Under the pieces are notes generated by a model. It saw only the letters and a list, made by a program, of their open reading frames with translations, made no database searches and was not told the origin of the DNA. Shown here in pieces: positions 1 through 64,000 of a DNA stretch of 64,000 nt. The stretch is from positions 1 to 64,000 of IMG/VR virus record IMGVR_UViG_3300043473_000069. One strand, written 5' to 3'. The position numbers were made by a program, and so were the translations under genes. Every line of letters starts with the position of its first letter. The first letter of the stretch is position 1. This DNA comes from a virus (taxonomy: Duplodnaviria; Caudoviricetes).

Positions 1-317
1 GAGGCGCACGCCGCTACCGCACCTGGGCAGGGCGGGATCAGGGATGCCCATGGTTATGTGATACGGGCCTGTATCACACGATCCCCTGTGTGGCCCTGTG
101 AGGCCCTGTGAGGGTCGTTTGCGTGCCTCCTGAGCGAAATGGCTGTGTGATACAACTGCACCAAACCCCTGGTAGATGCCCACGTTTCGCACGAAACCCT
201 TGTGGCAACTGGTTGCTAGAAACTTCCCTGATCAGTGTGTGGACTGTGTGATACGGCGGTATGGTGGCACCTCACCCGGCGCACGAGGCGCCGAGCACCA
301 GCCCAGGAGGCACTGCC

Positions 318-1199
318 ATGACGAACCCCACCGGACTCCGCCGCTTCTCACGGGTCATCACGACCAAGCGTGACGGCCGCTGCTACTTCTGCGAGCAGCC
401 CACGACCACGGGCGTGGACTTCGCCGCCGTGAACGCCTCCGGCGCCTGGACGTCGGTGTGCACCACCTGCGCCGCCACCATCGCCGCCCAGGCTGCGGGC
501 CTGGTCGCCAGCATCACCGCCGCCGCTGCTGACCACGAGGTTGACGAGGACGCCATCGTGATGCCCACGACCGAGAACCTGCTCGCCACGCTGCAGGGGA
601 CGGCCTCCGAGGCCCTGAGCTACGACACCGTCCTGGCCCTCATCCTGGCCCGTGACATGGTGCGTGAGCAGGTCAAGCCTGCGCCCGCCGCCCTGCCCTG
701 CATCCCCGACCTGCGGGCCATCGCCGCCGATGCCACCGCCAAGCCTCGTGACCGTGACTTCGCCGCCAGCCTGGTGTCGCAGTACGACCGCAAGGGCTCG
801 CTGTCTGACAAGCAGGTCGCCGCTGCGGCCCAGATGATCGCCCGTGCGGGCAAGGGCGCCGCCCCCATCGCCGCCCTGGTGCCGGGCCTGTACACGCTGG
901 ACGGCGCCATCTGGTGGGTCCGTACGGGGCGCCAGTCTGGCAACACGTACGCCATGCGCCTGCTGTCGGATCCCGATGCGCCGGGCAAGCCTGACTGGGA
1001 GTACGTCCGGGGCGGGCTGTCCACGGTCGCCAACGGTGGCGTGCGGGATGCTGACGGCACCGTCGCCGCCCGCCTGGGCCACGCTGCCCACGCCTGCGTG
1101 TTCTGCGGCACGGCCCTGACCGATGACGGTGACAACCGGTCGGTCAAGGTGGGCTACGGCCCGGTGTGCGCCAACCGCTACGGCCTGCCCTGGGGCTGA
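318..1199 (+). CDS. DUF6011-type zinc-finger domain protein
   Basis: AGGAGG RBS before ATG 318. N-terminal CxxC..CxxC; C-terminal CVFCGTALTD..SVKVGYGPVCA matches the DUF6011 pattern. Confidence 0.75.
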   Translation: MTNPTGLRRFSRVITTKRDGRCYFCEQPTTTGVDFAAVNASGAWTSVCTTCAATIAAQAAGLVASITAAAADHEVDEDAIVMPTTENLLATLQGTASEALSYDTVLALILARDMVREQVKPAPAALPCIPDLRAIAADATAKPRDRDFAASLVSQYDRKGSLSDKQVAAAAQMIARAGKGAAPIAALVPGLYTLDGAIWWVRTGRQSGNTYAMRLLSDPDAPGKPDWEYVRGGLSTVANGGVRDADGTVAARLGHAAHACVFCGTALTDDGDNRSVKVGYGPVCANRYGLPWG

Positions 1200-1207
1200 G
1201 CCCCTGC

Positions 1208-1260
1208 CCATACCGCCGTATCACACGAGTTGTGTGATACGGCGGTGCGGGTGATACACT
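1208..1260. promoter_or_regulatory. Operator palindrome and extended -10 promoter for the helicase gene
   Basis: ACCGCCGTATCACAC-GAGTT-GTGTGATACGGCGGT (15-bp arms, 1212-1246), then TGA-TACACT (TACACT at 1255-1260). Confidence 0.65.
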
Positions 1261-1302
1261 GACCTCTCACTTACCCACCCCGACCCCGATTCGGAGACTG
1301 CC

Positions 1303-2997: not shown

Positions 2998-3011
2998 CGC
3001 AGCACCCCCAC

Positions 3012-3044
3012 GAGAGCCCCGGCCCCACGGCCGGGGCTCTTCTG
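3012..3044 (+). terminator. Intrinsic terminator after helicase
   Basis: AGAGCCCCGGCC-CCAC-GGCCGGGGCTCT followed by TCT. Confidence 0.7.
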
Positions 3045-3441
3045 CGTTCACGGGCTCGCACGCTACACCTGCGCCTGGCCCGTGTTGATAGCAACTGACC
3101 AGGCACGATCCACGCATAGGCCCCTAGCAGGCCCGTAGAGCCACGACACCCCCTCTCAGCCCCAACGTGCGCCTGACTCCTGTTGCTAGCAACACAGCGC
3201 ACTGTAGGCACCAATCAGGGCCTCCTAGGGCATAGGGCGGTATGGGCGCTACGTGCCTGGTCACTGCGCCATGACAGCGACGCACTCACACCATGCGAGC
3301 GCCGCACTGTCACCGCCCCAGCGGTACACCCCCTGGCCCACCGCCCTGGGCGCCGCACCTGGCGGCTGAGTCAACCTCTCATGGCAGCACTCATGAGCAC
3401 CTGACTGGTTACTCGCACGCCACCGTGCACCCCTCAACACC

Positions 3442-3700: not shown

Positions 3701-3741
3701 ATGACGAGTTGACAGTGTGGGCGTCGTGCGAGTCGTGCCCC

Positions 3742-4182: not shown

Positions 4183-4244
4183 GGGACATCGTGTTGCGGG
4201 CGGTGAAGTGCACGGTGTGAAGCGTCATGACGGAATAGCCTGGG

Positions 4245-6065: not shown

Positions 6066-6275
6066 CGGCATCCCACCCCCCGAAGAGCCCAGCGACTACG
6101 CCTGGCTGCTTGGGGGGCTGTTGGCGTTCTTCCTCGTCCTCGGCCTGCTGTTCTCCTGGCTCTGGTGACCTGAACATCGTCTGAACACTGGGCGCTACGT
6201 AACCGGGCTATGGGCGCTGGTATCGGCCTATCAGACGATGCGTCAAAGGTTCGGAATCGTTGTAGTGTGTGATAC

Positions 6276-8022: not shown

Positions 8023-8063
8023 CCTCCGTGGTACCTCGGTATCACACAGCCCTACCCGAGTAA

Positions 8064-12718: not shown

Positions 12719-13170
12719 TCATCGTTCGGGGCATCCCGCTCTATTGGGGCGTCGAGCACGACGCCGCCGACCGCACCTTCCTCACCAAGGCGCACATGGA
12801 AGAGGCGCTCCCGCCGTACCGCTACTCCACCCGAGCTTTCCGTATCCGGGTATCACACAAGCACTGGCTCCATGTGGGGCTCTGTCGCTACAAGGACACC
12901 GTCACACCGTGGGGGCTTGAACTCCTGCCTGAGCGCATCGGAGAGTGGGGACGTGCTCAGACGAGTGCAGAAGCCGAAGAGCAAGAACCGGCTGGATCGG
13001 ATGGCGCCGGAGCAGGTCCAACTGCTGATGGAGACGTCGATGCAGCGGATGGCGGAACTGCTGAGGGGCCTGATGCACAACGAGATCGACCGGGGGTGGC
13101 TCCTGTCGGAACTGGACCTGCACTCGGAGCAGATGCACCTGGCAGTGCGCTCGCTGAGGGATCGGTATGA
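12715..13170 (+). CDS. Hypothetical protein (C-terminal part overlaps next gene)
   Basis: GTGA coupling; plausible globular N-terminal ~80 aa. Confidence 0.55.
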   Translation: MIIVRGIPLYWGVEHDAADRTFLTKAHMEEALPPYRYSTRAFRIRVSHKHWLHVGLCRYKDTVTPWGLELLPERIGEWGRAQTSAEAEEQEPAGSDGAGAGPTADGDVDAADGGTAEGPDAQRDRPGVAPVGTGPALGADAPGSALAEGSV

Positions 13171-14214: not shown

Positions 14215-15837
14215 ATGTTGGGCGCAGTGTCGTTCACGATCACGGACCTCGGCTACGGCCCCAGTGAGGAAGAGGCTGCCGAACTGGCTGCCCTAGAGGC
14301 CTTGGAAGAGGACGAGGACAACGCCAGCGGGATCGATGAGGATCCGCTGGCAGCGGAACTCGCTCCCGAGATGGCCGACTTCCTCGACCAGATGATCAAG
14401 CGGACGATCCTGTTCTGCGAGGAACTGTGGGGCAAGGAGTTCCGCCCGTACCAGCGGGCCATGTCATACAGGGTTATCGAGTCCCTGATCCTCAACGACG
14501 CCGAGGAGATCACCGGCCTCATGGCCCGCCAGAGCGGGAAGAGTGAGATCGTCGCCACCACCCTGGCTGGCTGCATGATCCTGTTCCCGATCCTGGCGAA
14601 GACCTACCCCAACATGAAGCAGTTTGAGGACGGGGTCTGGGTGGGCCTGTTCGCACCGGTCGAGGAGCAGAGCGAGTTGGTGTTCAGCCGCATCGCTGAC
14701 CGGCTCACCAGCGACCGTGCCCTGGCGATCCTCTCCGACCCAGAGATCGATGAGAAGGTCGATGGAAAGAGCCGTATGATACGTCTCTCCAACGGCTCCT
14801 TCTGCCGTCGTCAGACCGCCAACCCGAGAGCCAAGATCGAGGGCTCGACGTATCACATCATCGTGATCGATGAGGCCCAGGAGGCCGATGAGCAGGTGGT
14901 TCGCAAGAGCGTCCACCCCATGCTCGCCGCCAACGCTGGCACCATGGTGAAGATCGGGACGCCCGGCTTCAACAAGGGCGACTTCTACAAGGCCATCGGC
15001 CTCAACAAGCGCCGGGCACGGGGCAAGCGGTCCAACCATTTCGAGTACGACGACCGAGTTGTCAGCAAGTACAACCCCGCCTACAAGAAGTTCATCGAGA
15101 AGGAGAAGCTGCGCCTCGGGGAGGACTCCGAAGAGTTCCAGATGAGCTACCGCCTCAAGTGGATGCTGGAGCGGGGCATGCTCATCACCGAGGACGATCT
15201 CGACATGCTGGCGGACAAGAGCATGCCGCTGATCAAGGCGTGGATGCGGACCAAGGTCGTGGTGGGCATTGACCCGGCCCGCATCCGGGACTCCACCGTG
15301 TGCACGGTGTGCTGGGTGGACTGGGACCATCCGGATCCGGCGGGCTACCGGGAGCACCGCATCCTCAACTGGCTGGAGATCCACAACACCAACTTCGAAG
15401 AGCAGTACTTCGAACTCATGGACTTCCTCGACCCGTATGACATCGCTTACGTCGGCGTGGACGCTCAGGGGATGGGTGGGCCGGTTGCAGATCGGCTGCA
15501 GCGTCTGCTGGGCTCTCGCACCGAGGTCATCCCCTTCACCAGCGACGCCAAGAACCAGGCGGAGCGCTGGAAGCACCTGATCCAGCTACTGCAGCGCCAG
15601 ATGCTGGTCTACCCCGGCCACTCCAAGGCCCGACGCACCCGTGTGTGGCGCCGCTTCCGGCAGCAGATGAGCGATGCCGAGAAGGTCATGGCAGGGCAAT
15701 ACCTCCTGGTAGCGGCCCCCGATGAGCGTGAGGCGCACGACGACTACGTGGACAGCCTGGCTCTGGCCTGCGCCTGCTCCGTGCAGGAGACGGTCCCGGT
15801 GATCGAGGCCTTCGACAGTCCATTCTTCCGAAGGTGA
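14215..15837 (+). CDS. terL: Terminase large subunit (alternative start GTG 14227)
   Basis: Walker A ARQSGKS, Walker B IIVIDEAQ, coupling motif GTP, nuclease VVGIDPA..HDDYVDS. Confidence 0.95.
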   Translation: MLGAVSFTITDLGYGPSEEEAAELAALEALEEDEDNASGIDEDPLAAELAPEMADFLDQMIKRTILFCEELWGKEFRPYQRAMSYRVIESLILNDAEEITGLMARQSGKSEIVATTLAGCMILFPILAKTYPNMKQFEDGVWVGLFAPVEEQSELVFSRIADRLTSDRALAILSDPEIDEKVDGKSRMIRLSNGSFCRRQTANPRAKIEGSTYHIIVIDEAQEADEQVVRKSVHPMLAANAGTMVKIGTPGFNKGDFYKAIGLNKRRARGKRSNHFEYDDRVVSKYNPAYKKFIEKEKLRLGEDSEEFQMSYRLKWMLERGMLITEDDLDMLADKSMPLIKAWMRTKVVVGIDPARIRDSTVCTVCWVDWDHPDPAGYREHRILNWLEIHNTNFEEQYFELMDFLDPYDIAYVGVDAQGMGGPVADRLQRLLGSRTEVIPFTSDAKNQAERWKHLIQLLQRQMLVYPGHSKARRTRVWRRFRQQMSDAEKVMAGQYLLVAAPDEREAHDDYVDSLALACACSVQETVPVIEAFDSPFFRR

Positions 15838-18924: not shown

Positions 18925-19106
18925 TGCCGAAGACCCGTACCCCGCTATCCAAGAAGGTGGCGAAGAAGGCTGTGGTCAGGCCTGTATCACAACAGACCAA
19001 GACCAGCGGCGTTGTCGGGGACGTGCGGCCGGTGCAGACGAACAGCAACCTGCAGCGAGCGCAGTGGGGGATCACGAACCGGCAGAGCAAGGGGGACTGG
19101 ACATGA
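18924..19106 (+). CDS. Small basic protein
   Basis: TGATG coupling; K/R-rich. Confidence 0.55.
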   Translation: MPKTRTPLSKKVAKKAVVRPVSQQTKTSGVVGDVRPVQTNSNLQRAQWGITNRQSKGDWT

Positions 19107-19622: not shown

Positions 19623-19954
19623 GCTTCGTGGGCCATGGGTGGCGCTCCGGGACAGCTACTGACTCGGCAGTCAATACGGGGGCGGCTTCGACCGCCACCG
19701 TGTCGGGCATCGCCCCGACCACCTTCGCCCGCCGCAACAGCATCACGCTGACCGTCACCGGCACCGGCTTCACCGCCGCTACCAAGATCGTCGCTGACTA
19801 CGTCCCGATCTCCACCGTCTTCGACAGCGCCACGCAGTTGCGCTGCACCAGCTTCAACACCACGCCGGACAGCGGTGCGGCAGGCACCATCAACGTTGGC
19901 GTCGTCAAGCCCGGCGAGAAGATGTCCGCCACTCGCCCCTTCACGGCCGTATAG
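19619..19954 (+). CDS. IPT/TIG Ig-like domain protein (head decoration candidate)
   Basis: TVSGIAP..ITLTVTGTGFT..SATQL. Confidence 0.7.
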   Translation: MSFVGHGWRSGTATDSAVNTGAASTATVSGIAPTTFARRNSITLTVTGTGFTAATKIVADYVPISTVFDSATQLRCTSFNTTPDSGAAGTINVGVVKPGEKMSATRPFTAV

Positions 19955-19965
19955 GGGCGTATCAC

Positions 19966-22544: not shown

Positions 22545-22604
22545 TTGGGTAACTCACACCCATAGGGCCGTAACACACGACCCCGCTCTTCAAGGAGAAC
22601 CACC

Positions 22605-24028: not shown

Positions 24029-24583
24029 ATGAGCATCGTCTCCGTCCACGGCCCGTACACGTTCGGGTCGAAGGCCGTCACCGAGGTCGGCCCGGCCATG
24101 GCGACCGTCAACCCCACCAACGGGCTGATCTGGACCTTCAAGCTCGACCAGGCGAGCACTCGCACGGCGAGCCTGGCCTGGACCTTCCCCACCGGCACCC
24201 CAGCCTCGGCCACGGGTCCCGGCCCCCACACGGTCACCTACGCAGGTGCGGGCTCCAAGGCCAACACGATGGTGGCGACCGGCGCTGGCGAGGGCGTCAA
24301 CCCCTATCCGGCCGCTGGCACGACCAACCTGCCCGTCACGGCTGTCGCCGGTTCCGGTGGAGCGGGGATGAGCCTGCTGTCGGCGCCCGGCGGCGACGAG
24401 GGTGGCGAAGAGCCCCCGCCCGAGGAGAACGGCGAGTACGACCCCGGCGAGTACACGATCCCCGAGGTCGAGGCCTACGTCGATGCGTACCCCGACCAGA
24501 CCGAGGATGTCCTTGACGCCGAGGTGGCGGGCAAGAACCGATCGACCCTGGTGGCCTGGCTTGAGGCCCGGCTGCCCGAGTAA
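24029..24583 (+). CDS. PKD/Ig-like capsid decoration candidate
   Basis: WTFPTGTPASATGPGPHTVTY..G.K (PKD-like) plus C-terminal LDAE..GKNRSTLV helical domain. Confidence 0.65.
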   Translation: MSIVSVHGPYTFGSKAVTEVGPAMATVNPTNGLIWTFKLDQASTRTASLAWTFPTGTPASATGPGPHTVTYAGAGSKANTMVATGAGEGVNPYPAAGTTNLPVTAVAGSGGAGMSLLSAPGGDEGGEEPPPEENGEYDPGEYTIPEVEAYVDAYPDQTEDVLDAEVAGKNRSTLVAWLEARLPE

Positions 24584-24603
24584 CACACAGGAGAACAACC
24601 ATC

Positions 24604-44010: not shown

Positions 44011-44046
44011 TCCCCATACCCTCGTATCACACAGGAGCATGACATC

Positions 44047-49809: not shown

Positions 49810-50981
49810 GCCTGACCGACCTGCTGTCGCAGCCTGACGCTCGCTCGACCAAGGGCAGGGTGCCGATCTTCCGGCCCATGCTCAACGGCGAGGAGTTCGA
49901 CGTGACGTTCCAGGAGGCCGGGATCCAGATGGGCGAGGGCGCCCACGACACCGTGATCGTCCAGTGCCAGTCGTCCACGTTGACCGACACGGACGGCATG
50001 CTCAACTCGGCCATCAGCTTCTACTGGGGCCAGGCACCACGGACCGAACTGTTCTGCGGCTACATCGTGGGCGTCGGCATCACCAAGTCCGGTGAGGGCT
50101 CGCTCTCCTTCGGCCTGATCATCCTCGGTGCGACCAAGGTGATGCAGGAGGGCAAGCCTCGCTTCTGGACCAACCGCACGGTGCCCTCTGCGATCACGAC
50201 GTTGGCCTACTCCAACAACCTCGGCGTGCACACCCACCAGCACGACTTCGTGTGGGGCTCGATGGCGCAGACCGATCAGTCTGACTGGAAGATGCTCGAC
50301 ATCCAGGTGGGTCGGCTCGGCTGGTCCACCTTCAACCGGTACGGTGTGATACTCGCCTATGACGCACTGCAGTTGTTCCAGGACTCGGGGAGCTACTGCA
50401 CCCTCCAGTCGTCGCAGGACCAGGACTTCGATCCCACGGCGGAGCGGCGGCTGATCGAGTTCTCACCCAACGAGGAGTCGGACGAGAACCCTGACTCGAT
50501 GGGCACCAAGGTCGCCTACTTCACCGACCGCAACGACGTCCAGGTCACCAAGCAGGCGGGTGACCACAGCAGGTACAAGTTCATCACCCAGTGGGTGCTG
50601 CGGAACGCCGAGGAAGCAGCCCTCTACGCCAACGCTCCGACGGTCAAGCCTGGCTCATGGGACCAGACGGCCACGGCCCGCATCTGGGGTGACTCCGACA
50701 TCTACCCCGGCCTGTGCGTGGACGTCGTCACGACCAACAACACCTACCTCAAGAACAAGTACGACGGGCGCTGGCTCGTGCTGGCGGTGCAGCACAAGAT
50801 GGACCGCCAGTCCTTCCAGACGCAGTTGGCGATGGCCCGCCCAGCGAGTGATACACGGGTAACACAGGAGTCCTACCGTCCGTTCTGGGCTGTCGCTGGG
50901 AAGCCCCGCCCAGGCCTGTCGCTGCTCGATGGCGTGTGGACGTCGTCGTGGACCGACCCACGAGTGCAGAGCGTGATGTGA
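49806..50981 (+). CDS. Baseplate hub (gpD/gp27/VgrG-like)
   Basis: F.GYI, Q..QSDW..L, G...I.PG..V..YDGRWLV.AV.H. Confidence 0.85.
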   Translation: MSLTDLLSQPDARSTKGRVPIFRPMLNGEEFDVTFQEAGIQMGEGAHDTVIVQCQSSTLTDTDGMLNSAISFYWGQAPRTELFCGYIVGVGITKSGEGSLSFGLIILGATKVMQEGKPRFWTNRTVPSAITTLAYSNNLGVHTHQHDFVWGSMAQTDQSDWKMLDIQVGRLGWSTFNRYGVILAYDALQLFQDSGSYCTLQSSQDQDFDPTAERRLIEFSPNEESDENPDSMGTKVAYFTDRNDVQVTKQAGDHSRYKFITQWVLRNAEEAALYANAPTVKPGSWDQTATARIWGDSDIYPGLCVDVVTTNNTYLKNKYDGRWLVLAVQHKMDRQSFQTQLAMARPASDTRVTQESYRPFWAVAGKPRPGLSLLDGVWTSSWTDPRVQSVM

Positions 50982-51415
50982 GAGCGATCCAGTACCCCTT
51001 CCATCTCGACCGCAACAAGAACGTGGCCGAGTGCGTGAGCTACGACGACGTCGTCCGTGGACAGGTCATCGATGCTCTCATGACCAACCAGGGCGAGCGT
51101 GTGTTCCGCCCCCGCTACGGCTGCGACGTGCAGGCGGCACTGTTCGACCCCACCGACGAGTTGGTGCGCCGGGACGCAGCGGCCTTCCTCAAGACCAAGC
51201 TGGAGAACACGGTGACCCGTGCCATCATCCGCTCGGTCACCCTGGACCCGCAGTTGGGCTTCTCCCAGCCGACGCCGCTGTATCACAGCGACCCCTCTGC
51301 TGTGGTCATCACCGTCGTCTACCGGGCCTCGCTCTACGCCACCGACACAACGATCAACATCCCCGTGGCGTCTGAGTACGTCCGCCGACAGCTTGAAGGA
51401 GGGGTCTTCGAATGA
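50978..51415 (+). CDS. Baseplate wedge gp25/gpW-like
   Basis: LMTNQGERVFRPRYGC....LFDP. Confidence 0.9.
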   Translation: MRAIQYPFHLDRNKNVAECVSYDDVVRGQVIDALMTNQGERVFRPRYGCDVQAALFDPTDELVRRDAAAFLKTKLENTVTRAIIRSVTLDPQLGFSQPTPLYHSDPSAVVITVVYRASLYATDTTINIPVASEYVRRQLEGGVFE

Positions 51416-53313: not shown

Positions 53314-54890
53314 GCAACGACTGGTGGCCGCTCGACTACGCCAACCCGGCGTTCCAGGTCCAGCGTCAGGAGTACGGCCTGGCGACGGGCGGCGACTACG
53401 TCCGTGGCTCGTCGGTGTCCACGCTGCCGAACACAGCGCTGCGCTACCCCACGTCGAAGAAGGGCTACGACGCTGTCCGCAACAAGGGGTACCTCACGAT
53501 CCGCCCCTTCGACTACTTCACGGCCGAGATCGCCTGGGGCTGGCCGCTCGGTATCACCGAGGAGTGGCTGGAGATGGCGCTCGTGCGCTCCGGCTTCGGT
53601 GACCCGGTCACGGTGAACGATGGCGAGACGGTGCTGTACGGCAACCGTGCTGCGTTCACCGCCGACGCCACGCTGATCCCGCCACCCATCGTGTACGACC
53701 AGCCGCTGCAGCCCGGCCACTGGTACTACTACTCGCTGTTCTTCAAGACGACGCCGCTCGACTGGGTCCAGGCGATGACCGGCAACGTGCTGATCCCCCG
53801 CAACTACGGCCACGCCGACCACCTGTGGAACGCCGTGCCGCCCTTCTACCAGACCACCGACTCCAACCTCCGTGAGGGCAACGGGCCACTGCGCCAGTTC
53901 CTCACGGTCTTCGGTTTCGAGATGGACCAGACCCGCTCCTTCGTGGAGTCGTGGCAGGAGACGTATCACATCGACACCTGTCCCATGCCGTTGCTCAAGC
54001 GGGTGGGCGAGAACTTCGGTGAGCCCTACGCCGGGGGTATCGGTGGTGTCCGATACCGGGGTTTGCTGGCAGCCCTGCCGGAAGCCCTCTCGATGCGTGG
54101 CACCACGGTGGCGCTGCGTCAGATCATCGAGGCGGCATCGAAGTACGACTGCGACCTCTCGGTCGGCGGCAACCTCTTGCTGCTGCCCGACGACAGCGAC
54201 TTCTACTACGGCACCGGGTCGTGGGCGGCGCTCAACCCCACCGTGGGCTATCCCAACCCGTACACGGTCTACACGTCGGTCTTCCTGTCGAGCACGTCAC
54301 CCGGCATGGTCGCACCACCAACCAACGCTGGACGTGGATCGATGCTCGTTCGCACGACCAAGGCCGCAGCGACACAGGACCTCGTGATCACCTGCGGCGA
54401 CGGCATCAACACGGAGCGCCAGATCATCCCGCTCTACACAGGCGTGCCGGTGGAGCCCAACGCCACGTACGGCTTCTCGGTCCAGGTGAAGATGGAGAAC
54501 CCCTCGGCGGTGGTGGCGGAGCTTCTGTGGTTCGGGGAGGGAGGCAACCCCTCGGACTACCTGGGCTACACCCCCGGTGTCTCCAGCGCTCCCGCCAACA
54601 ACACGGCCTGGTTCACCTACCAGGCACAGGGCGCAGCCCCGGCGGGCGCTGTCTACATGGTGCCTGCGATCCGTGTCACCAACCGCATCTCCGGGTCGGA
54701 TCCCAACTACTCGTCCTCGCTGTGGATGGCCGGGGCGATGTCGTACCTGCTGGCTGCGGGCGGCGAGGTCACGGTGCCTCCGCCGGACTCGTATCTCACG
54801 ATGGGCGATCCGGCGGAGCCCCTGGGTGCGCTCGACGCCTCGGGTCACCCGACCTTCAAGCCCTACATCATCGGGACTCCGAACACATGA
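53310..54890 (+). CDS. Baseplate wedge gpI/gp7-like protein
   Basis: P.FY..L..FL..FGFE.D..RGT..AL; follows baseplate J. Confidence 0.75.
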   Translation: MSNDWWPLDYANPAFQVQRQEYGLATGGDYVRGSSVSTLPNTALRYPTSKKGYDAVRNKGYLTIRPFDYFTAEIAWGWPLGITEEWLEMALVRSGFGDPVTVNDGETVLYGNRAAFTADATLIPPPIVYDQPLQPGHWYYYSLFFKTTPLDWVQAMTGNVLIPRNYGHADHLWNAVPPFYQTTDSNLREGNGPLRQFLTVFGFEMDQTRSFVESWQETYHIDTCPMPLLKRVGENFGEPYAGGIGGVRYRGLLAALPEALSMRGTTVALRQIIEAASKYDCDLSVGGNLLLLPDDSDFYYGTGSWAALNPTVGYPNPYTVYTSVFLSSTSPGMVAPPTNAGRGSMLVRTTKAAATQDLVITCGDGINTERQIIPLYTGVPVEPNATYGFSVQVKMENPSAVVAELLWFGEGGNPSDYLGYTPGVSSAPANNTAWFTYQAQGAAPAGAVYMVPAIRVTNRISGSDPNYSSSLWMAGAMSYLLAAGGEVTVPPPDSYLTMGDPAEPLGALDASGHPTFKPYIIGTPNT

Positions 54891-56287
54891 CCGCTGTCTT
54901 CTCCAACTTCTTCCGCACGCAGTTGGCGACCACGCCGACGCTCATGGACACGGCCAAGATCACGATGCTGTTCTTCAGAGAGGCCCCTGACTTCAGCGGC
55001 AACGATCCTCGATACGCCGGTTTCGATGAAGCCGAGGACCTGTTCAACCAGTCGGGTTGGGTCCCCGCTGCTGGCACCGGCCTGCCCCTCCCGTCACCGG
55101 CCAACGACCTCACCGTCAGCGTGCGCCCGCAGGGTGTGAACCGCTACGTGATGTGGTCGCAGTACCTCCTGCCTGCCAACGTCTCGCCGGTCGAGGTGAA
55201 GGCGGTGGCCTTCGTCTACAAGGGCACCGTCGCTGGCGTCTCGGACCCGGTGATCTTCATCTCCAACACGCCGTTCGGTGATCGTGAGGTGGTCAAGGGC
55301 AACGATGGCATCACGTCGGCGCCGGACCCCACGCTCACCGGCTCCAACCGGTGGCTGTTCTCGTGGGCCATCCCAGCCGGTGGTGTCACGCAGGTGACGG
55401 CGATCGAGGGCTCGCTGGCCCTCACCAAGAGCCCGCCGTCTTTCGAGACGAGCCACACTCAGCACGTCTGGCTGTACCCGCAGCGGGCCAACATGATCGC
55501 CAACCCCAGCTTCGAAGCGCCCGGCACCAACTTCTGGTCCTGTAACGGCAGTATCACACGAGTCGCTGAACCGGCTCCTCTGGGCGACGGTCGTCAGAGT
55601 GGCGGCGCCTGGGCAGGGCGGTTCACCGGCACGTCCCCGCTCATCCTGGAGTCCAACGTCTTCCCGACCCAGCGGGAGGAGTACTGGACGGTGCAGTTCA
55701 TGGCGAAGGGTGCAGGCACCGTCAAGGTGGGGCTCGTGTGGTGGGACGACGACTACGCCGAGACGGCGGTGGACTGGGGCACCGAGACGTGGACGCTCAA
55801 CACCGCCAGCTACATCCACGTCGTCATCTGCCGCACGCTGTACCAGACCTACCAGGCGATGCTCCGCATCGAGGTCCAGGGCACCTCCATCACGCTCGAT
55901 CGTGTGCTCGTGGAGCGGGGCTTCCTCAAGGACTGGCCGTACTTCGACGGTGGCACCACCTACGGCGCCCGTGATGACTTCTCCTGGTACGGCGGTGCCG
56001 CTCGCCAGGGTGCGACGTACTCCCTCTGGTACAACAACAAGCGGGCCACCTACGGTCGGCTGTTCCAGCGGGACGTGGCTGACAACGTGCTGCTCACCGA
56101 CGAGGTGGAGGCGGCGCAGGGCAAGGTCTACCAGTGGGTGCCCGCCGGGACCATCGTGGTGCCGCACATCGACGTGCTCTACCCCAACGACCTGCAGGCC
56201 CCGGTGATCCCCAAGACGCCCGGCGTGGTCATCCCCTACCGCAGCAACATCTCGGACGCTGACAAGGTACGGAACCCTTGGGTGTAG
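54887..56287 (+). CDS. Baseplate/tail protein with CBM-like jelly-roll
   Basis: R.N.I.NPSFE..W..YFDG motifs. Confidence 0.7.
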   Translation: MTAVFSNFFRTQLATTPTLMDTAKITMLFFREAPDFSGNDPRYAGFDEAEDLFNQSGWVPAAGTGLPLPSPANDLTVSVRPQGVNRYVMWSQYLLPANVSPVEVKAVAFVYKGTVAGVSDPVIFISNTPFGDREVVKGNDGITSAPDPTLTGSNRWLFSWAIPAGGVTQVTAIEGSLALTKSPPSFETSHTQHVWLYPQRANMIANPSFEAPGTNFWSCNGSITRVAEPAPLGDGRQSGGAWAGRFTGTSPLILESNVFPTQREEYWTVQFMAKGAGTVKVGLVWWDDDYAETAVDWGTETWTLNTASYIHVVICRTLYQTYQAMLRIEVQGTSITLDRVLVERGFLKDWPYFDGGTTYGARDDFSWYGGAARQGATYSLWYNNKRATYGRLFQRDVADNVLLTDEVEAAQGKVYQWVPAGTIVVPHIDVLYPNDLQAPVIPKTPGVVIPYRSNISDADKVRNPWV

Positions 56288-57521: not shown

Positions 57522-57643
57522 CGTTCTCCGGAGGTTTCGGAATCGAAATCTCCAAGAAGGCATACCTCTGTATCACACGTAGACGGACCCCCCAAGGATC
57601 GTTGCGTCCTGTGGTGTCAATGTGACGTAGGTCACTGTCGCTT

Positions 57644-57670: not shown

Positions 57671-58797
57671 TGACACACAGCCGAGCAAGGATGGGCGACG
57701 TGGATCTCTCCGAACTGACCTCACAACTGAACCAGGGGTACGACGTCCCCGACGATGTCATGGAGTCGATCCTCAACCGGGACGTCCGGGCCATCGCCCT
57801 GATCGCCATCGGACTCGGCTGGCGGGTCGGCAAGGCCAAGGGGATCAACCTCACGGCCGAGGACGGCACTGCCGTACAGCTTCCGACCAACGCCGGGCTC
57901 AACTTCAAGGTCTTCCGCTCTCGCATCCGCACTGTCGTCCGCCACGGCGTGATCCGCACCCGTCTCCCCTTCACCGAATGGGTCGAGCAGTGCATCGTGA
58001 TCACCAAGCTGGAGCACTCGCACGCCAACCTCGTGCGGGAGGCAGTCGCTGCCATCACGTCGGAGCAGCACTGGCAGAACGTCGGCGGCGGTGTCCTGGA
58101 GAAGGACGACATCGTGGTCACCCACGGGAAGCCGACTCGGTCAGAAGCGAATCGGCCAGATGTGGCCGATTCCCCTGCCCCTGACCACATCACTCGGGAA
58201 GAGCCGTGGAGCGCCCATGGTCGGGTCCGCTCCGGTGGTTCCGAGACGTACCCCAGCGACGCCGTGATGGAGCGGGTGTGGAGCAGCGGCAAGCACGACT
58301 ACATCTGCCGCTGGCCCGACTGCGACTACGTCAGCGACATCCCCCGCTCGACGGCTGCCCACTACGGGTCGCACGTCCGGGGTCAGGGCAAGGCGCCGCA
58401 GCCCGAGGCCGATGGCATCGACCCGGCGTGGGCGCCCCGCCAGACTGCTCGTATCACACGGTTGCGCCGTGAACTTGACGGAGCCCTGCTCGCCGCCCTC
58501 GCTGCTGGGCTGGACCTGCGGACCCCGGAGTTCTCCCACTTCCTGGCGCAGTGGATCATCGACCACCGCATCGAGTCAGCCGGTGGCGATGTCGATGGCG
58601 GCGAGGACGAGGGACCTCTGTCCACGGAGCAGATCCTGGACAAGATCTCCGCTCTGGCCGACCGTGGCCGCTCCAAGATCCTGCGTGAGCAGTTGGACAC
58701 CCTGAACGCCCTCCTGGACGAGAGTGAGGGAGCCCGCCGCAAAGCCGAGGGGAACCTCCATGCTCTCCGGGACCTACTGAACGAGGAAGAGAACTGA
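57670..58797 (+). CDS. C2H2 zinc-finger protein with coiled-coil C-terminus (start 57670 or 57691)
   Basis: YICRWPDCDYVSDIPRSTAAHYGSH = C-x4-C-x12-H-x3-H. Confidence 0.7.
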   Translation: MTHSRARMGDVDLSELTSQLNQGYDVPDDVMESILNRDVRAIALIAIGLGWRVGKAKGINLTAEDGTAVQLPTNAGLNFKVFRSRIRTVVRHGVIRTRLPFTEWVEQCIVITKLEHSHANLVREAVAAITSEQHWQNVGGGVLEKDDIVVTHGKPTRSEANRPDVADSPAPDHITREEPWSAHGRVRSGGSETYPSDAVMERVWSSGKHDYICRWPDCDYVSDIPRSTAAHYGSHVRGQGKAPQPEADGIDPAWAPRQTARITRLRRELDGALLAALAAGLDLRTPEFSHFLAQWIIDHRIESAGGDVDGGEDEGPLSTEQILDKISALADRGRSKILREQLDTLNALLDESEGARRKAEGNLHALRDLLNEEEN

Positions 58798-59328: not shown

Positions 59329-59411
59329 AGACCGACTACTACCGGCTGACGCTGCTGGCCCTGCTCTTCGGCCTCCTGGCCGTTGCCTTCGTCATGGTCC
59401 TAGCGTTGTGA
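59325..59411 (+). CDS. Membrane microprotein (28 aa)
   Basis: ATGA and GTGA overlaps; one hydrophobic helix. Confidence 0.5.
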   Translation: MKTDYYRLTLLALLFGLLAVAFVMVLAL

Positions 59412-59626: not shown

Positions 59627-59830
59627 CCTTCGTGTGATACAGGCGTATGCCTGGAGAGTTGCTGGCAACAATTTCGCTCTTCGTCTTGCTTCGCTCTTAC
59701 CCATCGTCTACGGTGTCCCCCGTGCCGGGCGGCACAGAGAGGGAGGGAGGCGGGACGTGAACAACACTCTCGGCGGACCTCTGTTCTGCGATGCCTGGTA
59801 CTTCCAATCCAACCCATAGGGAGTAGCTAC

Positions 59831-60963: not shown

Positions 60964-63063
60964 ATGTACAGGACCAAGACCATCGTGGGGGCGGCGCTCG
61001 TCGCCACGATCACGATGTTCACGACGACCGTGGCACGGGCCGAGGGTGAGGATCCGGCCCCCACGACCACGGTCGTAGAACAGGAGGAAGCTCCCACCAC
61101 GACGATGCAGATCGTCGTCCCCGTGGCTGATCCGGAGCCTCAGGCCGCTGAGCCTGAGCCCGCACCGGCCACCACCACGCCGACCACGGAGGACACCAAG
61201 CCCCCCGTGGTCGAGCCGGACCCCAACATGGAGCAGATGCCGGTCATCGTTGATGACTCGGCCACCCCGGCGACGGGGTCCATGGTGGAGGTCACGGCGC
61301 CGCCGACGACCAACGTCCAGCAGACGCATGATCAGGAGACGGTGATCACCGGGACCCAGGTGGCGCAGGCCACCACGGGGAACAACACGGCGATCAACGA
61401 CCAGGATCAGCCGAGCGGGGTTGCGGTCGGGGCTGGTACCTCCGTATCGACCGGCGAAGCCGATGCCATCGGCAGCCGGGACGAGAACACGGTGACCCAG
61501 ACGGCGGACGTGGTGCTGACCGGCGAGGCCGTCGCCAACCTGCTGCAGATCGCTCTGATCCTCAACATCGGAGCGGCCCTGGCGAACAGCGGGTCGAACG
61601 GCGTCCTCTCGACACCAGGAGGCTCCAGCAACCCTGGGGCCATCGGTAGCGGTGACGCCACGGCGATCGGCAACTCGATCGCCAGCTACATCACCCAGGC
61701 GGCGAACACGACGGCCGACAACGCCGTCGATGACTCCGCCTCGCAGTTGGCGATCAGCCTGTTCCTCGGGCTGGCGATCGCCAACAGTGGTACCAACTCG
61801 GTCCTCGGGAACGGCGTCGCCGGGTCCGGTGGCGGGATCGGTACGGGCGATGCGATGGCGATCGGGAACGACTCCATCACCGACATCACGCAGCGGGCCA
61901 TCCTGCTGGGTGCTGATCAGGCGACGCTGAACGTGCTGCAGCGGGCCACGGTGCTCAACCTCGGGTTCGCCCTCGCCAACAGTGGCCTCAACGACATCTC
62001 AGGTGTCGCTGGGAGCCTGCTGGCGGCGAGCGACGAAGAGGATGACCTCCTGGCCCAGCAGTTGTTCAGCATGCTCCTGCCAGCGCTCCTGCAGAGCTAC
62101 GGCTATGGCGCAGGGTCGGGCACCATCCAGAGCGGTGACGCCGCTGCCATCGGCAACCAGAGCGACACGCAGATCCTCCAGACGGCTGGGGCGATGGCGA
62201 CGGGGGACGGGATCGCTTCCATCCTCCAAGACGTCCTGGTGGCGAACGTGGGTGGCGCTGCGGCCAACTCAGGGCTCAACAGCCTCGGGTCGGCCAAGAC
62301 GCTGGACCCGCAGACGGCCACAGCGGTCGTCCAGATGGCTGCGTTCCTCGCCCAACTGCTGGCGATGGTGCACCACTCATCGAGCACGGCCACGCAACTG
62401 GCCGCTCAGACCCAGAGCATCCAGATCCCCTTCGGGGACCTGATCTTGACGCTCGACGGTCAGTTCGGTGCGATGGACACCTTCCTGCAGCAGGGTGAGG
62501 CGAGGGCCAACATCCGGCAGATCAGCATCATCGTCAGCCTCGGTGTGGCGCAGGCCAACAGCGGCCTCAACGCCGTGGCGACGATGTCGGACAGCAGGTT
62601 GCTGGCGGCGGTGAACGCCGTCCTCCCCGATGTCATCGGGTCGGGCGACGCCGACGCACGCAACCGGACCGTGGTCCAGATCTGTCAGCGGATCAACTCC
62701 ATCAGCGTGGAGTGCCTGGCCCCGCCGGTCGATGAGCCGGAGACACCGGTGACTCCTCCGACGCCAACGGGTGATACACCGGTTACGCCACCGTCTGACC
62801 CCGGTATCCTCCCGGACACAGGCGAGGCTCCCAACACGGTGATCATGCTCGATCCCGAGCCGATCCCGCAGGGGTTCCGGGCGCCGACTGCGGTGCCCAC
62901 GTCGGACTCGTCCACGCACGGACGGCAGGGGCTGCTGGCAGTCAGCGGCTCCAACGTCGGCAACATCCTCTGGGGTGCCAGCATGCTGGTCCTCCTGGGT
63001 GTGCTGCTGGCGTGCCTGGGCATCCGGCGCAGGCCGGTTGTCGGTACTCACTTCCGCAGCTAG
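60964..63063 (+). CDS. Cell-wall-anchored repeat protein with sortase-type sorting signal
   Basis: Signal peptide; repeated ANSG.N..I..GDA.AIGN..I.Q; Pro/Thr linker; LPDTG, then LAVSG, hydrophobic helix and RRR. Confidence 0.75.
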   Translation: MYRTKTIVGAALVATITMFTTTVARAEGEDPAPTTTVVEQEEAPTTTMQIVVPVADPEPQAAEPEPAPATTTPTTEDTKPPVVEPDPNMEQMPVIVDDSATPATGSMVEVTAPPTTNVQQTHDQETVITGTQVAQATTGNNTAINDQDQPSGVAVGAGTSVSTGEADAIGSRDENTVTQTADVVLTGEAVANLLQIALILNIGAALANSGSNGVLSTPGGSSNPGAIGSGDATAIGNSIASYITQAANTTADNAVDDSASQLAISLFLGLAIANSGTNSVLGNGVAGSGGGIGTGDAMAIGNDSITDITQRAILLGADQATLNVLQRATVLNLGFALANSGLNDISGVAGSLLAASDEEDDLLAQQLFSMLLPALLQSYGYGAGSGTIQSGDAAAIGNQSDTQILQTAGAMATGDGIASILQDVLVANVGGAAANSGLNSLGSAKTLDPQTATAVVQMAAFLAQLLAMVHHSSSTATQLAAQTQSIQIPFGDLILTLDGQFGAMDTFLQQGEARANIRQISIIVSLGVAQANSGLNAVATMSDSRLLAAVNAVLPDVIGSGDADARNRTVVQICQRINSISVECLAPPVDEPETPVTPPTPTGDTPVTPPSDPGILPDTGEAPNTVIMLDPEPIPQGFRAPTAVPTSDSSTHGRQGLLAVSGSNVGNILWGASMLVLLGVLLACLGIRRRPVVGTHFRS

Positions 63064-63087
63064 AGTTGCTAGCAAGCGGGAACCCAA

Positions 63088-63123
63088 AGAGGCCCACTCC
63101 CAATCGGGGGTGGGCCTCTTTCG
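63088..63123 (+). terminator. Intrinsic terminator
   Basis: AAGAGGCCCACTCC-loop-GGGGTGGGCCTCTT then TC. Confidence 0.75.
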
Positions 63124-63217
63124 TGTCCGGGGGTATGTGCGGTACCGTGCCCGGACAAGCAGAGAGGCCGGGATGTTCACGGCCCGGCCTCTCCAAGATC
63201 CCGAAGGACCCAACTCG

Positions 63218-64000
63218 ATGGCAGAACGTACTAGAAGGCCGACCCGCTCACAAGTCTTCCGCTTCCTGAGAGAGCTTCAACGACCTGAGAGCATCAGCCG
63301 ACGCCAGTGGCCGGGCGTCAAGGCCTTCCTCTACGTCGTTGCAAGGGCGTACCCGCACCCCTACAAGAGCCAGGCGACCCTGGCTGACGAGATGGGTGTG
63401 ACGGTCCGTTCAGTGAAGCGGTACGTCCGGTTGGCGAGAGACGCAGGGTTGCTAGTAGTAGAGGCAGACGCCGGGATGAAGCGTCCCTGGAGCCCTCGTC
63501 GGACCAACCTGTATCACATCATGTGTGATACGAAAATGTCCCCTTCCAAACAGGGCAAATTGTCCCCCAAAGAAGAAGGGATACTGACGTATCCCTCCCG
63601 CCCAGCGAAAGGTCCTCCGGACCAGACTTCGTCTGGTCCATCGGCCCGGCCCGGCCAAGCCGGGCCAACAAGAGTCCGTAGGATCCCCCGGATGCCAGAG
63701 CCCGCCCGCACGGCCAGTGAAGCCATCGCAGCAGCCAACGAGAAGGGTCGTATCACACGGCGTCCGAGGAAGGGCGACAAGGATCCCTCACGGCGGATGG
63801 AGGAGCACTTCCTCAACCAGTGGGACTGGGTGGTGGAGTCGGTCCCCTCCCTGGCGCCAGTGCGAGTGCTCGACAACCGTCACGAGCCGAGGGGGTACCT
63901 CCGTGCGACCTTCTTCGCTCCCTCGGCCGGACGGACGTACACCGAGGACGAGGTGCACGAGTTCATCGATGAGTTCATGAAGGCCGTGGTGCGAGGGCTG
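63218..64000 (+). CDS. HTH replication-initiator-like protein (truncated by window end)
   Basis: AAGGA RBS; SQATLADEMGVTVRSVKRYVRLARDAGLL..TNLY winged HTH, then K(M/L)SP repeats; open to 64000; absent from the ORF track. Confidence 0.7.
   Translation, partial: MAERTRRPTRSQVFRFLRELQRPESISRRQWPGVKAFLYVVARAYPHPYKSQATLADEMGVTVRSVKRYVRLARDAGLLVVEADAGMKRPWSPRRTNLYHIMCDTKMSPSKQGKLSPKEEGILTYPSRPAKGPPDQTSSGPSARPGQAGPTRVRRIPRMPEPARTASEAIAAANEKGRITRRPRKGDKDPSRRMEEHFLNQWDWVVESVPSLAPVRVLDNRHEPRGYLRATFFAPSAGRTYTEDEVHEFIDEFMKAVVRGL

What the first reader, a model, noticed from the sequence alone, without database searches (positions are those of the whole stretch)
56..63758. Genome-wide 9-bp site (GTATCACAC family), about one per kb, in both orientations, overriding codon preference
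Seen: exact GTATCACAC at 71, 1218, 8039, 12850, 44024, 55551, 57570, 58451, 63750 and its reverse complement at 145, 246, 1232, 6267, 50344, 59632, 63523 (16 by eye). The 7-mer core GTATCAC/GTGATAC occurs about 37 times. Single-mismatch variants occur too: GTAACACAC (9282, 22570, 24580, 30491, rc 29988), GTATGACAC (10717, 36159, 48681, rc 6911, 21211), GTATCTCAC (34339, 36908, 41577, 48702, 54791, rc 10543, 20635, 44947) and GTATTACAC (26844). A rough zero-order expectation at ~67% GC is well under one exact 9-mer. Inside genes the site uses codons that are otherwise rare here (GTA TCA at 12850, ATA at 14086, GTA TTA at 26844, TTA at 29993), which points to selection on the DNA. Copies sit at promoters and start codons (6267, 6911, 19959, 44024), occur as inverted pairs (57-78, 1218-1240, 63511-63531) and run through the structural genes. 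Established: cluster A mycobacteriophage stoperators are similarly dispersed but oriented with transcription, whereas these are not. Inference: this is a binding-site lattice for one protein that coats, condenses, protects or silences the whole phage chromosome.
Basis: partly seen in the sequence, partly recalled or inferred. Interest (0 to 1): 0.88.

Follow-up and report, generated by a model that had tools for sequence, protein, structure and literature searches.

The report
Scattered operator-like site in soil phage
A 9-letter DNA word that is about 60 times too frequent in this uncultured soil phage is real; it is the strong half of a 20-bp palindrome-like protein-binding site that sits on the early promoters of related phages and is also scattered through the rest of the genome, resembling the known "stoperator" networks of other actinobacterial phages without being one of them.

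Summary
GTATCACAC occurs 16 times in the window (0.27 expected) and 25 times in the 100.7-kb contig. The 8-mer core occurs 40 times. Enrichment survives a protein-preserving codon shuffle: 20 core sites in coding DNA against 0.76.

The word is the strong half of an imperfect inverted repeat, TGTGATAC-N4-GTATCACA. The core is conserved in relatives (22-37 copies in the complete ones), with lineage-specific flanks. One relative lacks it and has a different scattered palindrome.

In two complete relatives, 5-10 copies are the -35 region of sigma70-like early promoters (TGTGATAC-N13/14-TAnnnT), often with a second copy at +1. The window keeps one such promoter, at 1233-1260, because the contig lacks about 15 kb of early region.

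Other copies are 4-7 times denser between genes. About 80% are co-oriented with transcription, and they are irregularly spaced, so there is no lattice. No integrase, sigma factor or prophage relative was found.

Best reading: these are operator sites of a phage-encoded dimeric regulator of early transcription, plus secondary sites. The binding protein is not identified; the two candidates are a winged-helix protein (63218-64129) and a MerR-like protein. The "coating or condensing" idea is not supported. This is a new variant of a known kind, of moderate interest. The scan had already noted the same motif on an overlapping window of this genome.

The parts
56..64 (-). core site (GTATCACAT), left arm of pair 57-79
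71..79 (+). exact site; aligns with the -10 region (TATCAT) of the orthologous promoter in relative G001
145..153 (-). exact site in the 5' non-coding region of gene 318-1199
246..262 (-). exact site with weak second half (GTGTGATAC-ggcg-GTAT), 56 nt upstream of gene 318-1199
1213..1245 (.). perfect 14-bp-stem palindrome CCGCC-GTATCACAC-gagtt-GTGTGATAC-GGCGG, made of two exact sites (1218 plus, 1232 minus)
1233..1260 (+). sigma70-like promoter of the helicase gene (1303-2997): TGTGATAC overlapping -35, 14-nt gap, -10 TACACT. It is the only canonical early-type promoter left in this contig, and the same layout stands upstream of the G001 helicase ortholog
6267..6275 (-). exact site abutting the ATG of gene 6276-6770
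8039..8047 (+). exact site, intergenic, 94 nt upstream of gene 8133
12850..12858 (+). exact site between genes 12476-12718 and 12953-13183
14850..14858 (+). core site in the terminase gene (ACG TAT CAC ATC, T-Y-H-I); the same codons occur in G001, G002 and G004, but the closest relative L008 has TAC
18984..18992 (+). core site (GTATCACAA), genic
19951..19967 (+). dyad ATAG-gggc-GTATCACAT overlapping the portal ATG (19966); kept only in the closest relatives
22549..22578 (+). two variant sites (GTAACTCAC, GTAACACAC) upstream of the major capsid gene; a GTAAC/GACA site is kept at this junction in G001 and G002
24580..24588 (+). variant GTAACACAC whose TAA is the stop codon of gene 24029-24583, followed by AGGAG
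31744..31752 (+). core site, genic (T-Y-H-M)
44016..44032 (+). dyad ATAC-cctc-GTATCACAC between the tail tube gene and the next gene. The orthologous junction has a flipped dyad in G001, a degenerate copy in G002, and a different palindrome in G003
46693..46701 (+). core site, genic
50344..50360 (-). exact site with weak half, antisense inside gene 49806-50981 (uses ATA)
51280..51288 (+). core site, genic
53963..53971 (+). core site, genic (T-Y-H-I)
55551..55559 (+). exact site, genic
57562..57578 (+). dyad ATAC-ctct-GTATCACAC, intergenic, upstream of gene 57664/57700
58451..58459 (+). exact site, genic
59632..59648 (-). dyad GTGTGATAC-aggc-GTAT, intergenic, just after gene 59408-59626
63218..64000 (+). 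candidate binder: 304-aa protein (the gene runs to 64129, beyond the window) with an N-terminal winged helix (HTH_36/MarR-like), a disordered linker and a helical C-terminal domain. Its linker DNA carries the motif copies
63511..63531 (.). inverted pair GTATCACA-tcatg-TGTGATAC inside the linker-coding part of gene 63218-64129; the first copy (encoding Y-H-I) is kept at the same place in G001 and G002
63578..63595 (.). palindrome GGGATAC-tgac-GTATCCC (inner part of the dyad, N4). It is kept in G001, G002 and G004 although the encoded amino acids differ; probable origin or regulatory region
63750..63758 (+). exact site inside gene 63218-64129

Best explanation
GTATCACAC is the strong half-site of a 20-bp imperfect inverted repeat, TGTGATAC-N4-GTATCACA. 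This repeat is the recognition site of one sequence-specific, probably dimeric, helix-turn-helix DNA-binding protein encoded by this lineage of lytic, roughly 115-kb soil myoviruses. Its clearest job is as an operator on a battery of sigma70-type early promoters. There the strong half overlaps the -35 hexamer (TTGTGA), and a second copy often lies just after the -10 at the transcription start, a layout expected to shut the promoter when occupied. The window keeps only one such promoter (1233-1260, helicase gene) and degenerate remains at 56-262, because the contig lacks the roughly 15-kb early region. The other copies, about 35 in this genome, are secondary sites kept by selection. They are enriched between genes and at gene junctions, where they overlap start codons or supply a TAA stop. 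Inside genes they are tolerated where Tyr-His or Ile-Thr allow them. About 80% have the strong half reading along the sense strand. I infer that these sites let the same protein act along transcription units, either as a stoperator-like roadblock or attenuator or as local control of downstream genes. The protein and the sign of its action are not established. Shown: enrichment, dyad symmetry, conservation, promoter placement in relatives, and polarity. Inferred: that a protein binds, that it is phage-encoded, and that it represses.
For: Enrichment over dinucleotide and codon-shuffled nulls. Dyad: upstream of the core, the reverse-complement half matches only at spacer 4, in all three genomes (3.1 of 8 matches against 1.9 background; no signal at spacers 0-3 or 5-12). 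The core is conserved in relatives with portal identity of about 78% or more, with flanks that differ by lineage: GTATCACAC here, GGTATCACAAC in G001 and G002, GTATCTCA in L112. G003 has only 3 copies, and more distant relatives have none. Promoter placement: TGTGATAC-N13/14-TAnnnT occurs 10 times in G001, 5 in G002 and once here (1233), with 0 for the reversed control. These stand in tandem in front of small ORFs, several with GGTATCACA directly after the -10. The orthologous tube/next-gene junction keeps a site in three genomes but with the dyad flipped in G001, and G003 has its own palindrome there. A site is also kept at the major capsid gene's upstream junction. Intergenic density is 1.06 per kb against 0.28 per kb in genes. 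4 of 12 TAA stops are gTAAcacac. Polarity of non-promoter sites: intergenic 18:5 (p=0.011), genic 32:10. No phage sigma factor or WhiB was found, so host RNA polymerase with sigma70-like promoters is expected. Precedents for dispersed operator networks and small MerR-like repressors in actinophages: PMC9283540, PMC6550527, PMC10276819, PMC12266134.
Against: No binding protein is identified. Pfam and PHROGs found no DNA-binding domain in about 30 early or conserved small proteins. Most copies in this window are not at recognisable promoters: only 1 of 8 antisense intergenic sites has a -10 at the right distance (and text). A repressor with sites inside and in front of late structural genes is hard to reconcile with a lytic cycle. 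No integrase and no prophage relatives were found, so the silencing logic of temperate stoperator phages does not transfer. Part of the genic orientation bias can be explained by codon constraints alone. Promoters are inferred from sequence only; no transcript data exist.
Confidence: 0.55

Rival explanations
1. Initiator-box network. The sites are boxes of the replication-initiator-like winged-helix protein (63218-64129). It would bind the dyads in the linker-coding part of its own gene (a lambda-O-like origin) and, like DnaA with its 9-bp boxes, also bind promoters and scattered boxes, coupling replication to early-gene shut-off.
For: The protein has an N-terminal winged helix, a disordered linker and a C-terminal domain. 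Its linker DNA carries GTATCACA-N5-TGTGATAC and GGGATAC-N4-GTATCCC. The first copy of the pair is kept at the same place in G001 and G002, and the palindrome (as its lineage's variant) in G001, G002 and G004, although the linker's amino acids differ, and an AT-richer stretch lies between them. The ortholog in motif-less G003 is only 25% identical.
Against: In L111 and L112 the same linker holds tandem direct repeats of quite different sequence. These look like the true iterons, so the initiator may bind those rather than the motif. The fold is a generic winged helix with no specific initiator match. The correlation with motif presence is confounded by phylogeny.
Confidence: 0.15
2. Chromosome-wide architectural or protective binding. 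A protein uses the sites as nucleation points to coat, condense or shield the phage DNA, and the promoter overlap is incidental.
For: Sites occur all along the genome, including inside structural genes at the cost of rare codons. Copy number is high (22-40) in several relatives.
Against: Spacing is random to clustered, with gaps up to 12-18 kb. A close relative (G003) manages with 3 copies. Placement at -35 and +1 of promoters is stereotyped. Polarity relative to transcription is not expected for a coat. No nucleoid-protein-like gene was recognised.
Confidence: 0.1
3. A polar signal read during transcription or on RNA. Examples would be an ops-like or pause element on the non-template strand that loads an elongation or translation factor, or an RNA site (GUAUCACA) for a processing or binding protein. 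That would explain the sense-strand bias and the copies that abut start codons lacking a Shine-Dalgarno sequence.
For: About 80% of non-promoter sites are on the sense strand. Several sit 0-25 nt before start codons with no room for a ribosome-binding site: 19959, 76087 and 95193, and 10902 in G001.
Against: 20% are antisense, including intergenic ones. The site has dyad symmetry at a fixed spacer. The orthologous junction site is flipped in G001. The promoter copies are in the opposite orientation and upstream of the transcript. All of these fit double-stranded DNA recognition better.
Confidence: 0.1
4. The word is simply a promoter element (an extended -35) of host RNA polymerase, and the non-promoter copies are decayed or spurious promoters.
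For: TTGTGA resembles TTGACA and lies 17 nt from TAnnnT in 16 promoters of three genomes.
Against: Conservation extends well beyond a -35 hexamer, to a 9-14 bp strong half plus a second half-site. Most copies have no -10 at any suitable distance, and most are in the wrong orientation to drive the genes. Selection maintains copies inside genes.
Confidence: 0.07
5. Compositional or mutational artefact, or remnants of a small mobile repeat.
For: None beyond the raw repetition.
Against: Flanks are unrelated between copies. The word is absent from a relative of equal G+C. The reversed-word controls give 0. The codon-shuffle null fails to reproduce it. The word is rare in actinobacterial genomes.
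Confidence: 0.02

Closest known systems
Repressor-stoperator systems of Cluster A mycobacteriophages (L5, Bxb1, TipsytheTRex) and R4-like Streptomyces phages (PMC9283540, PMC6550527, PMC10276819)
   Same: One short word occurs 20-40 times per genome. Some copies are true operators overlapping the -35 of an early lytic promoter. In L5 the 13-mer contains the reverse complement of TTGACA (my recollection); here TGTGATAC overlaps TTGTGA. Most copies are not at promoters, are enriched in short intergenic spaces, and are biased to one orientation relative to transcription. The word diverges between related phages.
   Different: Those phages are temperate siphoviruses of about 50 kb whose immunity repressor binds as a monomer to 13-14 bp sites without dyad symmetry, with near-strict orientation. 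Here the phage is an apparently lytic myovirus of about 115 kb with no integrase. The site is a dyad (N4), orientation is only about 80% biased, half the copies lie inside genes, and no homologous repressor was found.
Mycobacteriophage D29 Gp36, a small MerR-like repressor of a lytic phage (PMC12266134)
   Same: It shows that a small MerR-type HTH protein can act as a transcriptional repressor of early and late genes in a lytic actinophage. This phage encodes a MerR-like 148-aa protein (genome 77617-78063) whose HTH is identical in all motif-bearing relatives.
   Different: Gp36 binds GC-rich direct repeats at one place, not a dispersed dyad. No binding data exist here.
Phage lambda O protein and ori-lambda inside the O gene; DnaA boxes (textbook knowledge, not checked in a paper here)
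   Same: A DNA-binding initiator whose binding sites lie in the linker-coding part of its own gene; an asymmetric 9-bp box scattered over a chromosome and also used at promoters.
   Different: No evidence that the 63218-64129 protein is an initiator or binds the word. Relatives carry unrelated tandem repeats at that place.
T4 MotA boxes at middle promoters; phiC31 conserved inverted repeats bound by the c repressor (own knowledge, not checked in a paper here)
   Same: A phage-specific word replacing or overlapping the -35 of many promoters (MotA); a highly conserved inverted repeat repeated in intergenic regions of an actinophage (phiC31).
   Different: The MotA box is promoter-only and activating. 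The phiC31 repeats are 17-bp symmetric sites in a temperate phage. Neither is found inside genes at this density.

Membership tests
Cluster A-type repressor-stoperator system | Temperate phage with an immunity repressor (and integrase or parABS) | tested here: not met
   No PF00589 or PF00239 match in G000, G001 (98% complete) or G002 (100%). No relatives in 185,579 bacterial genomes. No repressor homolog recognised.
Cluster A-type repressor-stoperator system | Asymmetric 13-14 bp site without dyad symmetry, bound by a monomer | tested here: not met
   The reverse-complement half is enriched at exactly one spacer (N4) in three genomes. Binding stoichiometry cannot be tested with these tools.
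Cluster A-type repressor-stoperator system | 20-30 sites per genome; a few in early promoters, most elsewhere in short intergenic spaces | tested here: met
   22-40 core copies. 5-10 are at -35 of early promoters in G001 and G002. Intergenic density is 4-7 times genic density. However, 24 of 40 copies are genic.
Cluster A-type repressor-stoperator system | [quoted passage not shown] | tested here: inconclusive
   18:5 intergenic and 32:10 genic are co-oriented. This is a significant bias but not the near-strict rule of L5. Nearly all genes are on one strand, so transcription and genome axis are hard to separate.
Sigma70-type promoter (-35 element) | -35-like hexamer 16-18 nt upstream of TAnnnT, in front of a gene, in the sense orientation | tested here: met
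   Met for a subset only: 1 site in this contig (1233), 10 in G001, 5 in G002, control 0. Not met for the other 39 copies here.
Initiator boxes or iterons at an origin | Clustered repeats next to an AT-rich stretch, within or beside the initiator gene, bound by that initiator | tested here: inconclusive
   An inverted pair plus a GATAC-N4-GTATC palindrome lie in the linker of the winged-helix gene and are conserved in relatives. Binding is not testable. Relatives have other tandem repeats there.
Chi/KOPS-like polar words | Strand-skewed 8-mer, mostly inside genes, also over-represented in the host chromosome | tested here: not met
   Enriched in intergenic DNA, with dyad symmetry. Rare in three actinobacterial genomes, at the level of the reversed control. 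The true host is unknown.

The most novel reading that the evidence does not exclude
A lytic phage runs a genome-wide, DnaA-box-like regulon. A single winged-helix initiator-type protein, whose origin lies in its own gene, would read a polar 9-bp box at early promoters, gene junctions and inside genes, coupling the start of replication to shut-off of early transcription and to polar control of elongation along a one-directional, roughly 115-kb genome. Related lineages would have re-coded the box (GTATCACAC, GGTATCACAAC, GTATCTCA, TATCGGGATA).
Probability: 0.12. Interest if true: 0.75.

Novelty: new variant of a known kind. Interest (0 to 1): 0.5.

Why it matters
Dispersed operator networks are so far documented almost only in temperate actinophages, where they silence a prophage. 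Finding a conserved, dyad-type, partly polar network in an uncultured and apparently lytic clade of large soil myoviruses would extend that regulatory logic to a different lifestyle and virion type. It gives a ready-made regulatory code for the clade: a promoter consensus and an operator. It also offers a natural series of re-coded specificities for studying co-evolution of a DNA-binding protein with dozens of sites. Practically, the word is a good marker for recognising contigs of this clade and for locating its early promoters.

Tried and rejected
1. Megablast and tblastn against cultured phages: no close relative. The portal is only 57% identical to Streptomyces phage BRock, which lacks the word. 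The 63218 protein has no match there.
2. A literature search for the word itself returned only primers. A search for phiC31 conserved inverted repeats returned nothing useful.
3. The E. coli-consensus promoter scan found nothing, which is uninformative for actinobacterial promoters.
4. CATAGGG as a possible late-promoter word: only 4 copies, so rejected.
5. Synonymous conservation at the terminase Y-H-I site: the closest relative uses TAC and distant motif-less relatives sometimes use TAT, so this gives only weak evidence.
6. Sequencing runs: no RNA holder is listed. Contigs of four soil or sediment runs laid on 1-20000 differ at only about 32 places, none in a site, which gives too little power to test constraint.
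7. Pfam and PHROGs on about 50 proteins gave no clear repressor. The Atlas search says only that the first early-operon gene (261-1199) is a DUF6011 phage protein.
8. Foldseek of the 63218 protein gave only generic winged-helix matches.
9. The full dyad scanned in 596 Gb of prokaryote genomes gave 119 hits, by my rough estimate about the number expected by chance, with few Actinobacteria among the listed hits.
10. The genome search 'relatives' is not available for a virus record, so the real host could not be examined.

Full report
WHAT THE DNA IS. The window is the first 64 kb of a single 100,668-bp contig with 65% G+C. It encodes terminase, an SPP1-type portal, capsid, tail sheath, baseplate J, a helicase and other phage proteins. 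Almost all genes are on the plus strand. The nearest cultured phages are BRock-like Streptomyces myoviruses, at only 57% portal identity. IMG/VR holds many closer, uncultured soil relatives, among them two complete or nearly complete genomes: G001 (115.7 kb, 98% complete) and G002 (118.1 kb, with direct terminal repeats).

CheckV rates this contig 85% complete. Synteny shows that it lacks the roughly 15-kb segment that lies between its two ends in G001 and G002. No tyrosine or serine integrase, sigma factor or WhiB gene was detected in these genomes. No relative of the portal was found in 185,579 prokaryote genomes. The lineage therefore looks lytic and dependent on host RNA polymerase.

THE OBSERVATION. 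Dinucleotide shuffles give 0.27. The whole contig has 25 exact 9-mers and 40 copies of the 8-mer core GTATCACA, with about 1.1 expected. Only certain substitutions are enriched: position 4 T>A, 5 C>G, 6 A>T, 9 C>T/A, and less strongly 8 A>C. Other substitutions are at background. That is the signature of a degenerate recognition site rather than a composition effect.

In the protein-preserving codon shuffle, coding DNA holds 20 core sites against 0.76 (maximum 4 in 200 shuffles), and 46 family sites against 4.2. Genic copies sit in the two cheapest frames, xxG-TAT-CAC-A (Tyr-His) and xGT-ATC-ACA (Ile-Thr). Every antisense genic copy uses the very rare ATA codon. The word is rare in three high-G+C actinobacterial genomes (7-12 per 5-6 Mb, like its reversed control). 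It is nearly absent from a relative of equal G+C, G003, which has 3 copies in 91.5 kb.

ANATOMY OF THE SITE. Aligning all copies shows a second conserved element, (c)ATA(C/G), 4 nt upstream. When the upstream DNA is scored against the reverse-complement half at every spacer from 0 to 12, there is a signal only at spacer 4. This holds in G000, G001 and G002 alike: about 3.1 matches of 8 against 1.9 background. The unit is therefore a 20-bp imperfect inverted repeat, TGTGATAC-N4-GTATCACA, with one strong and one weak half. This is the usual form of an operator for a dimeric helix-turn-helix protein.

The flanks differ by lineage: GTATCACAC here, (CT)GGTATCACAAC in G001 and G002, and GTATCTCA as the main form in L112.

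WHERE IT SITS IN COMPLETE RELATIVES. In G001 (49.5-62.2 kb in my flipped coordinates) and G002 (99.4-101.6 kb), the intergenic spaces in front of a run of small ORFs share one design. It reads (c)gtGT-TGTGATACC, then 13-14 nt, then TAC(A/C)CT, followed by a conserved leader, a Shine-Dalgarno sequence and a start codon. With TTGTGA as -35, a 17-nt spacer and TAnnnT as -10, these fit the promoter form known for the principal sigma factor of actinobacteria (established knowledge).

The pattern TGTGATAC-N13/14-TAnnnT occurs 10 times in G001, 5 times in G002 and once in this contig, and never for the reversed control. In several promoters a second copy, GGTATCACA, follows the -10 by one base. The TAC of the -10 then serves as its weak half (TAC-N4-GTA). 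An occupied pair would cover both -35 and the start site, which is why I read the site as an operator and the effect as repression. This last step is inference.

In this window the one intact example is at 1233-1260, in front of the helicase gene. Its -35 copy is the right arm of the perfect palindrome at 1213-1245. The same layout (copy, 5-6 nt, inverted copy, -10) stands before the helicase ortholog of G001. The four copies at 56-262 are the tail end of the promoter array, at the broken end of the contig.

THE OTHER COPIES. Outside the early region the sites are not promoters. Of the antisense intergenic copies in this contig, only 1233 has a -10 at a usable distance. They are 4-7 times denser between genes (1.06 against 0.28 per kb for the core). 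They favour gene junctions. Some abut or overlap start codons (6267, 19959, 76087, 95193). The GTAACACAC variant supplies the stop codon of 4 of the 12 genes that end in TAA.

Positions mostly turn over between relatives; the portal-upstream copy, for example, is found only in the closest ones. Some junctions do keep a site. Between the tail tube gene and the next gene there is ATAC-cctc-GTATCACAC here, TGTGATAC-tgga-GTAT (the dyad flipped) in G001, a degenerate copy in G002, and a different palindrome, TATCGGGATA, in G003. That palindrome is G003's own dispersed 10-mer, with 7 copies against 0.06 expected. A copy is likewise kept upstream of the major capsid gene.

Spacing is irregular (gap CV 0.96-1.26, gaps up to 12-18 kb), so 'lattice' is not an apt word.

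ORIENTATION. I set aside promoter-type and early-region copies, which by design read TGTGATAC on the sense strand. Of the rest, 18 of 23 intergenic and 32 of 42 genic core sites in G000, G001 and G002 read GTATCACA on the sense strand (p=0.011 and 0.0009). Codon constraints can explain the genic bias but not the intergenic one. Because nearly all genes share one strand, transcription and genome axis are almost confounded. The few sites in minus-strand blocks lean towards transcription: 72979 in the Ro60 gene here, and 43363 in G001.

A polar component of function is therefore likely, as in stoperators. The 20% of reversed copies, the dyad and the flipped orthologous site all argue that recognition is of double-stranded DNA.

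WHO BINDS. This is not settled. Pfam and PHROGs searches of about 50 proteins, including all small early proteins of G001, gave only two HTH candidates.

(a) The first is a 304-aa protein at 63218-64129. It has an N-terminal winged helix (HTH_36, MarR/DeoR-like), a roughly 80-residue disordered linker and a helical C-terminal domain. The DNA coding for its linker carries GTATCACA-tcatg-TGTGATAC and, 50 bp on, GGGATAC-tgac-GTATCCC. The first copy of the pair recurs at the same place in G001 and G002, and the palindrome (in each lineage's variant) recurs in G001, G002 and G004, although the linker's amino acids are not conserved. Two relatives also have tandem iteron-like repeats there. This looks like an origin inside an initiator gene, as in lambda O. 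The unrelated tandem repeats make it uncertain that this protein reads the GTATCACA word.

(b) The second is a MerR-like 148-aa protein at genome position 77617-78063, outside the window. Its HTH is identical in every motif-bearing relative and differs in the motif-less G003 group. Its gene is flanked by variant sites here and preceded by a core site in G001. This correlation is confounded by phylogeny. D29 Gp36 shows that such a protein can be a repressor in a lytic actinophage.

COMPARISON WITH KNOWN SYSTEMS. The closest known kind is the repressor-stoperator network of Cluster A mycobacteriophages and R4-like Streptomyces phages. Those have 20-30 copies of one word, a few of them as operators on the early promoter and most elsewhere in short intergenic spaces, oriented with transcription.

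This system works like that in outline but fails the membership test on three defining points: temperate lifestyle with an immunity repressor, monomer binding to an asymmetric site, and near-strict orientation. It also differs in having half its copies inside genes. I therefore class it as a new variant of a known kind, not a member.

VERDICT. The finding is real, conserved and under selection. The mechanism is most likely a regulatory binding-site network centred on early promoters (confidence 0.55). The chromosome-coating reading is not supported. Interest is moderate (0.5). The scan had already noted the same motif on an overlapping window of this genome.

Noticed in passing
window 63500-63700 (inside gene 63218-64129): Probable replication origin inside the linker-coding part of a winged-helix gene: an inverted pair, an AT-richer stretch, the GGGATAC-N4-GTATCCC palindrome and a GGACCAGAC-ttc-GTCTGGTCC hairpin. 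Relatives L111 and L112 carry 2-4 tandem 20-bp iteron-like repeats at the same place.
   Followed up: partly
G003 (loci L100-L104), e.g. flipped coordinates 22166, 76765: The motif-less relative has its own dispersed palindrome TATCGGGATA(T), with 7 copies against 0.06 expected. One copy lies at the junction orthologous to window site 44024. G003 also has 9 copies of GTTCCAAGGG clustered near 81 and 91 kb.
   Followed up: partly
loci L046, L048, L050 (TTCCAAGG x18-22), L075 (TTACCTTG x18), L079 (TGAGGACC x19): More distant portal relatives (50-52% G+C) hold other 8-mers at 18-22 copies per 14-22 kb. These could be tandem arrays or their own dispersed words; I did not look further.
   Followed up: no
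window 57645-57669: Perfect 25-bp palindrome TGTCAAAGATAC-G-GTATCTTTGACA (contains TTGACA and GATAC/GTATC) just upstream of gene 57664/57700. This is a separate operator-like element.
   Followed up: no
window 1261-1285 and G001/G002 early promoters: A conserved leader, gacctctcac(c)cactt(a)cc, follows the -10 of the early promoters in three genomes. It may be a shared 5'-UTR element.
   Followed up: no
genome: 24581, 77597, 78061, 86109: 4 of the 12 TAA stop codons of this contig are embedded in gTAAcacac. Three of these are followed by a nearby start codon, so the motif variant doubles as a stop codon at gene junctions.
   Followed up: yes
G001 flipped 45875-48094 and G002 92399-94560 (segment missing from this contig): The missing early segment of relatives encodes an AAA_5 ATPase and a Ku-like protein next to a leftward-transcribed block driven by the same promoter type.
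   Followed up: partly
Genome-contig scan (loci L137-L216): The exact full dyad TGTGATAC-N4-GTATCACA occurs 119 times in 596 Gb of prokaryote genomes, which by my rough estimate is about the chance number. About a quarter of the listed hits are haloarchaea, which may reflect an unrelated haloarchaeal operator.
   Followed up: no
window 1-20000 in runs X3, X5, X6, X7: Nearly identical copies of this phage (a few dozen differences in 20 kb) occur in soil and sediment metagenomes of several studies, so the phage is widespread.
   Followed up: partly
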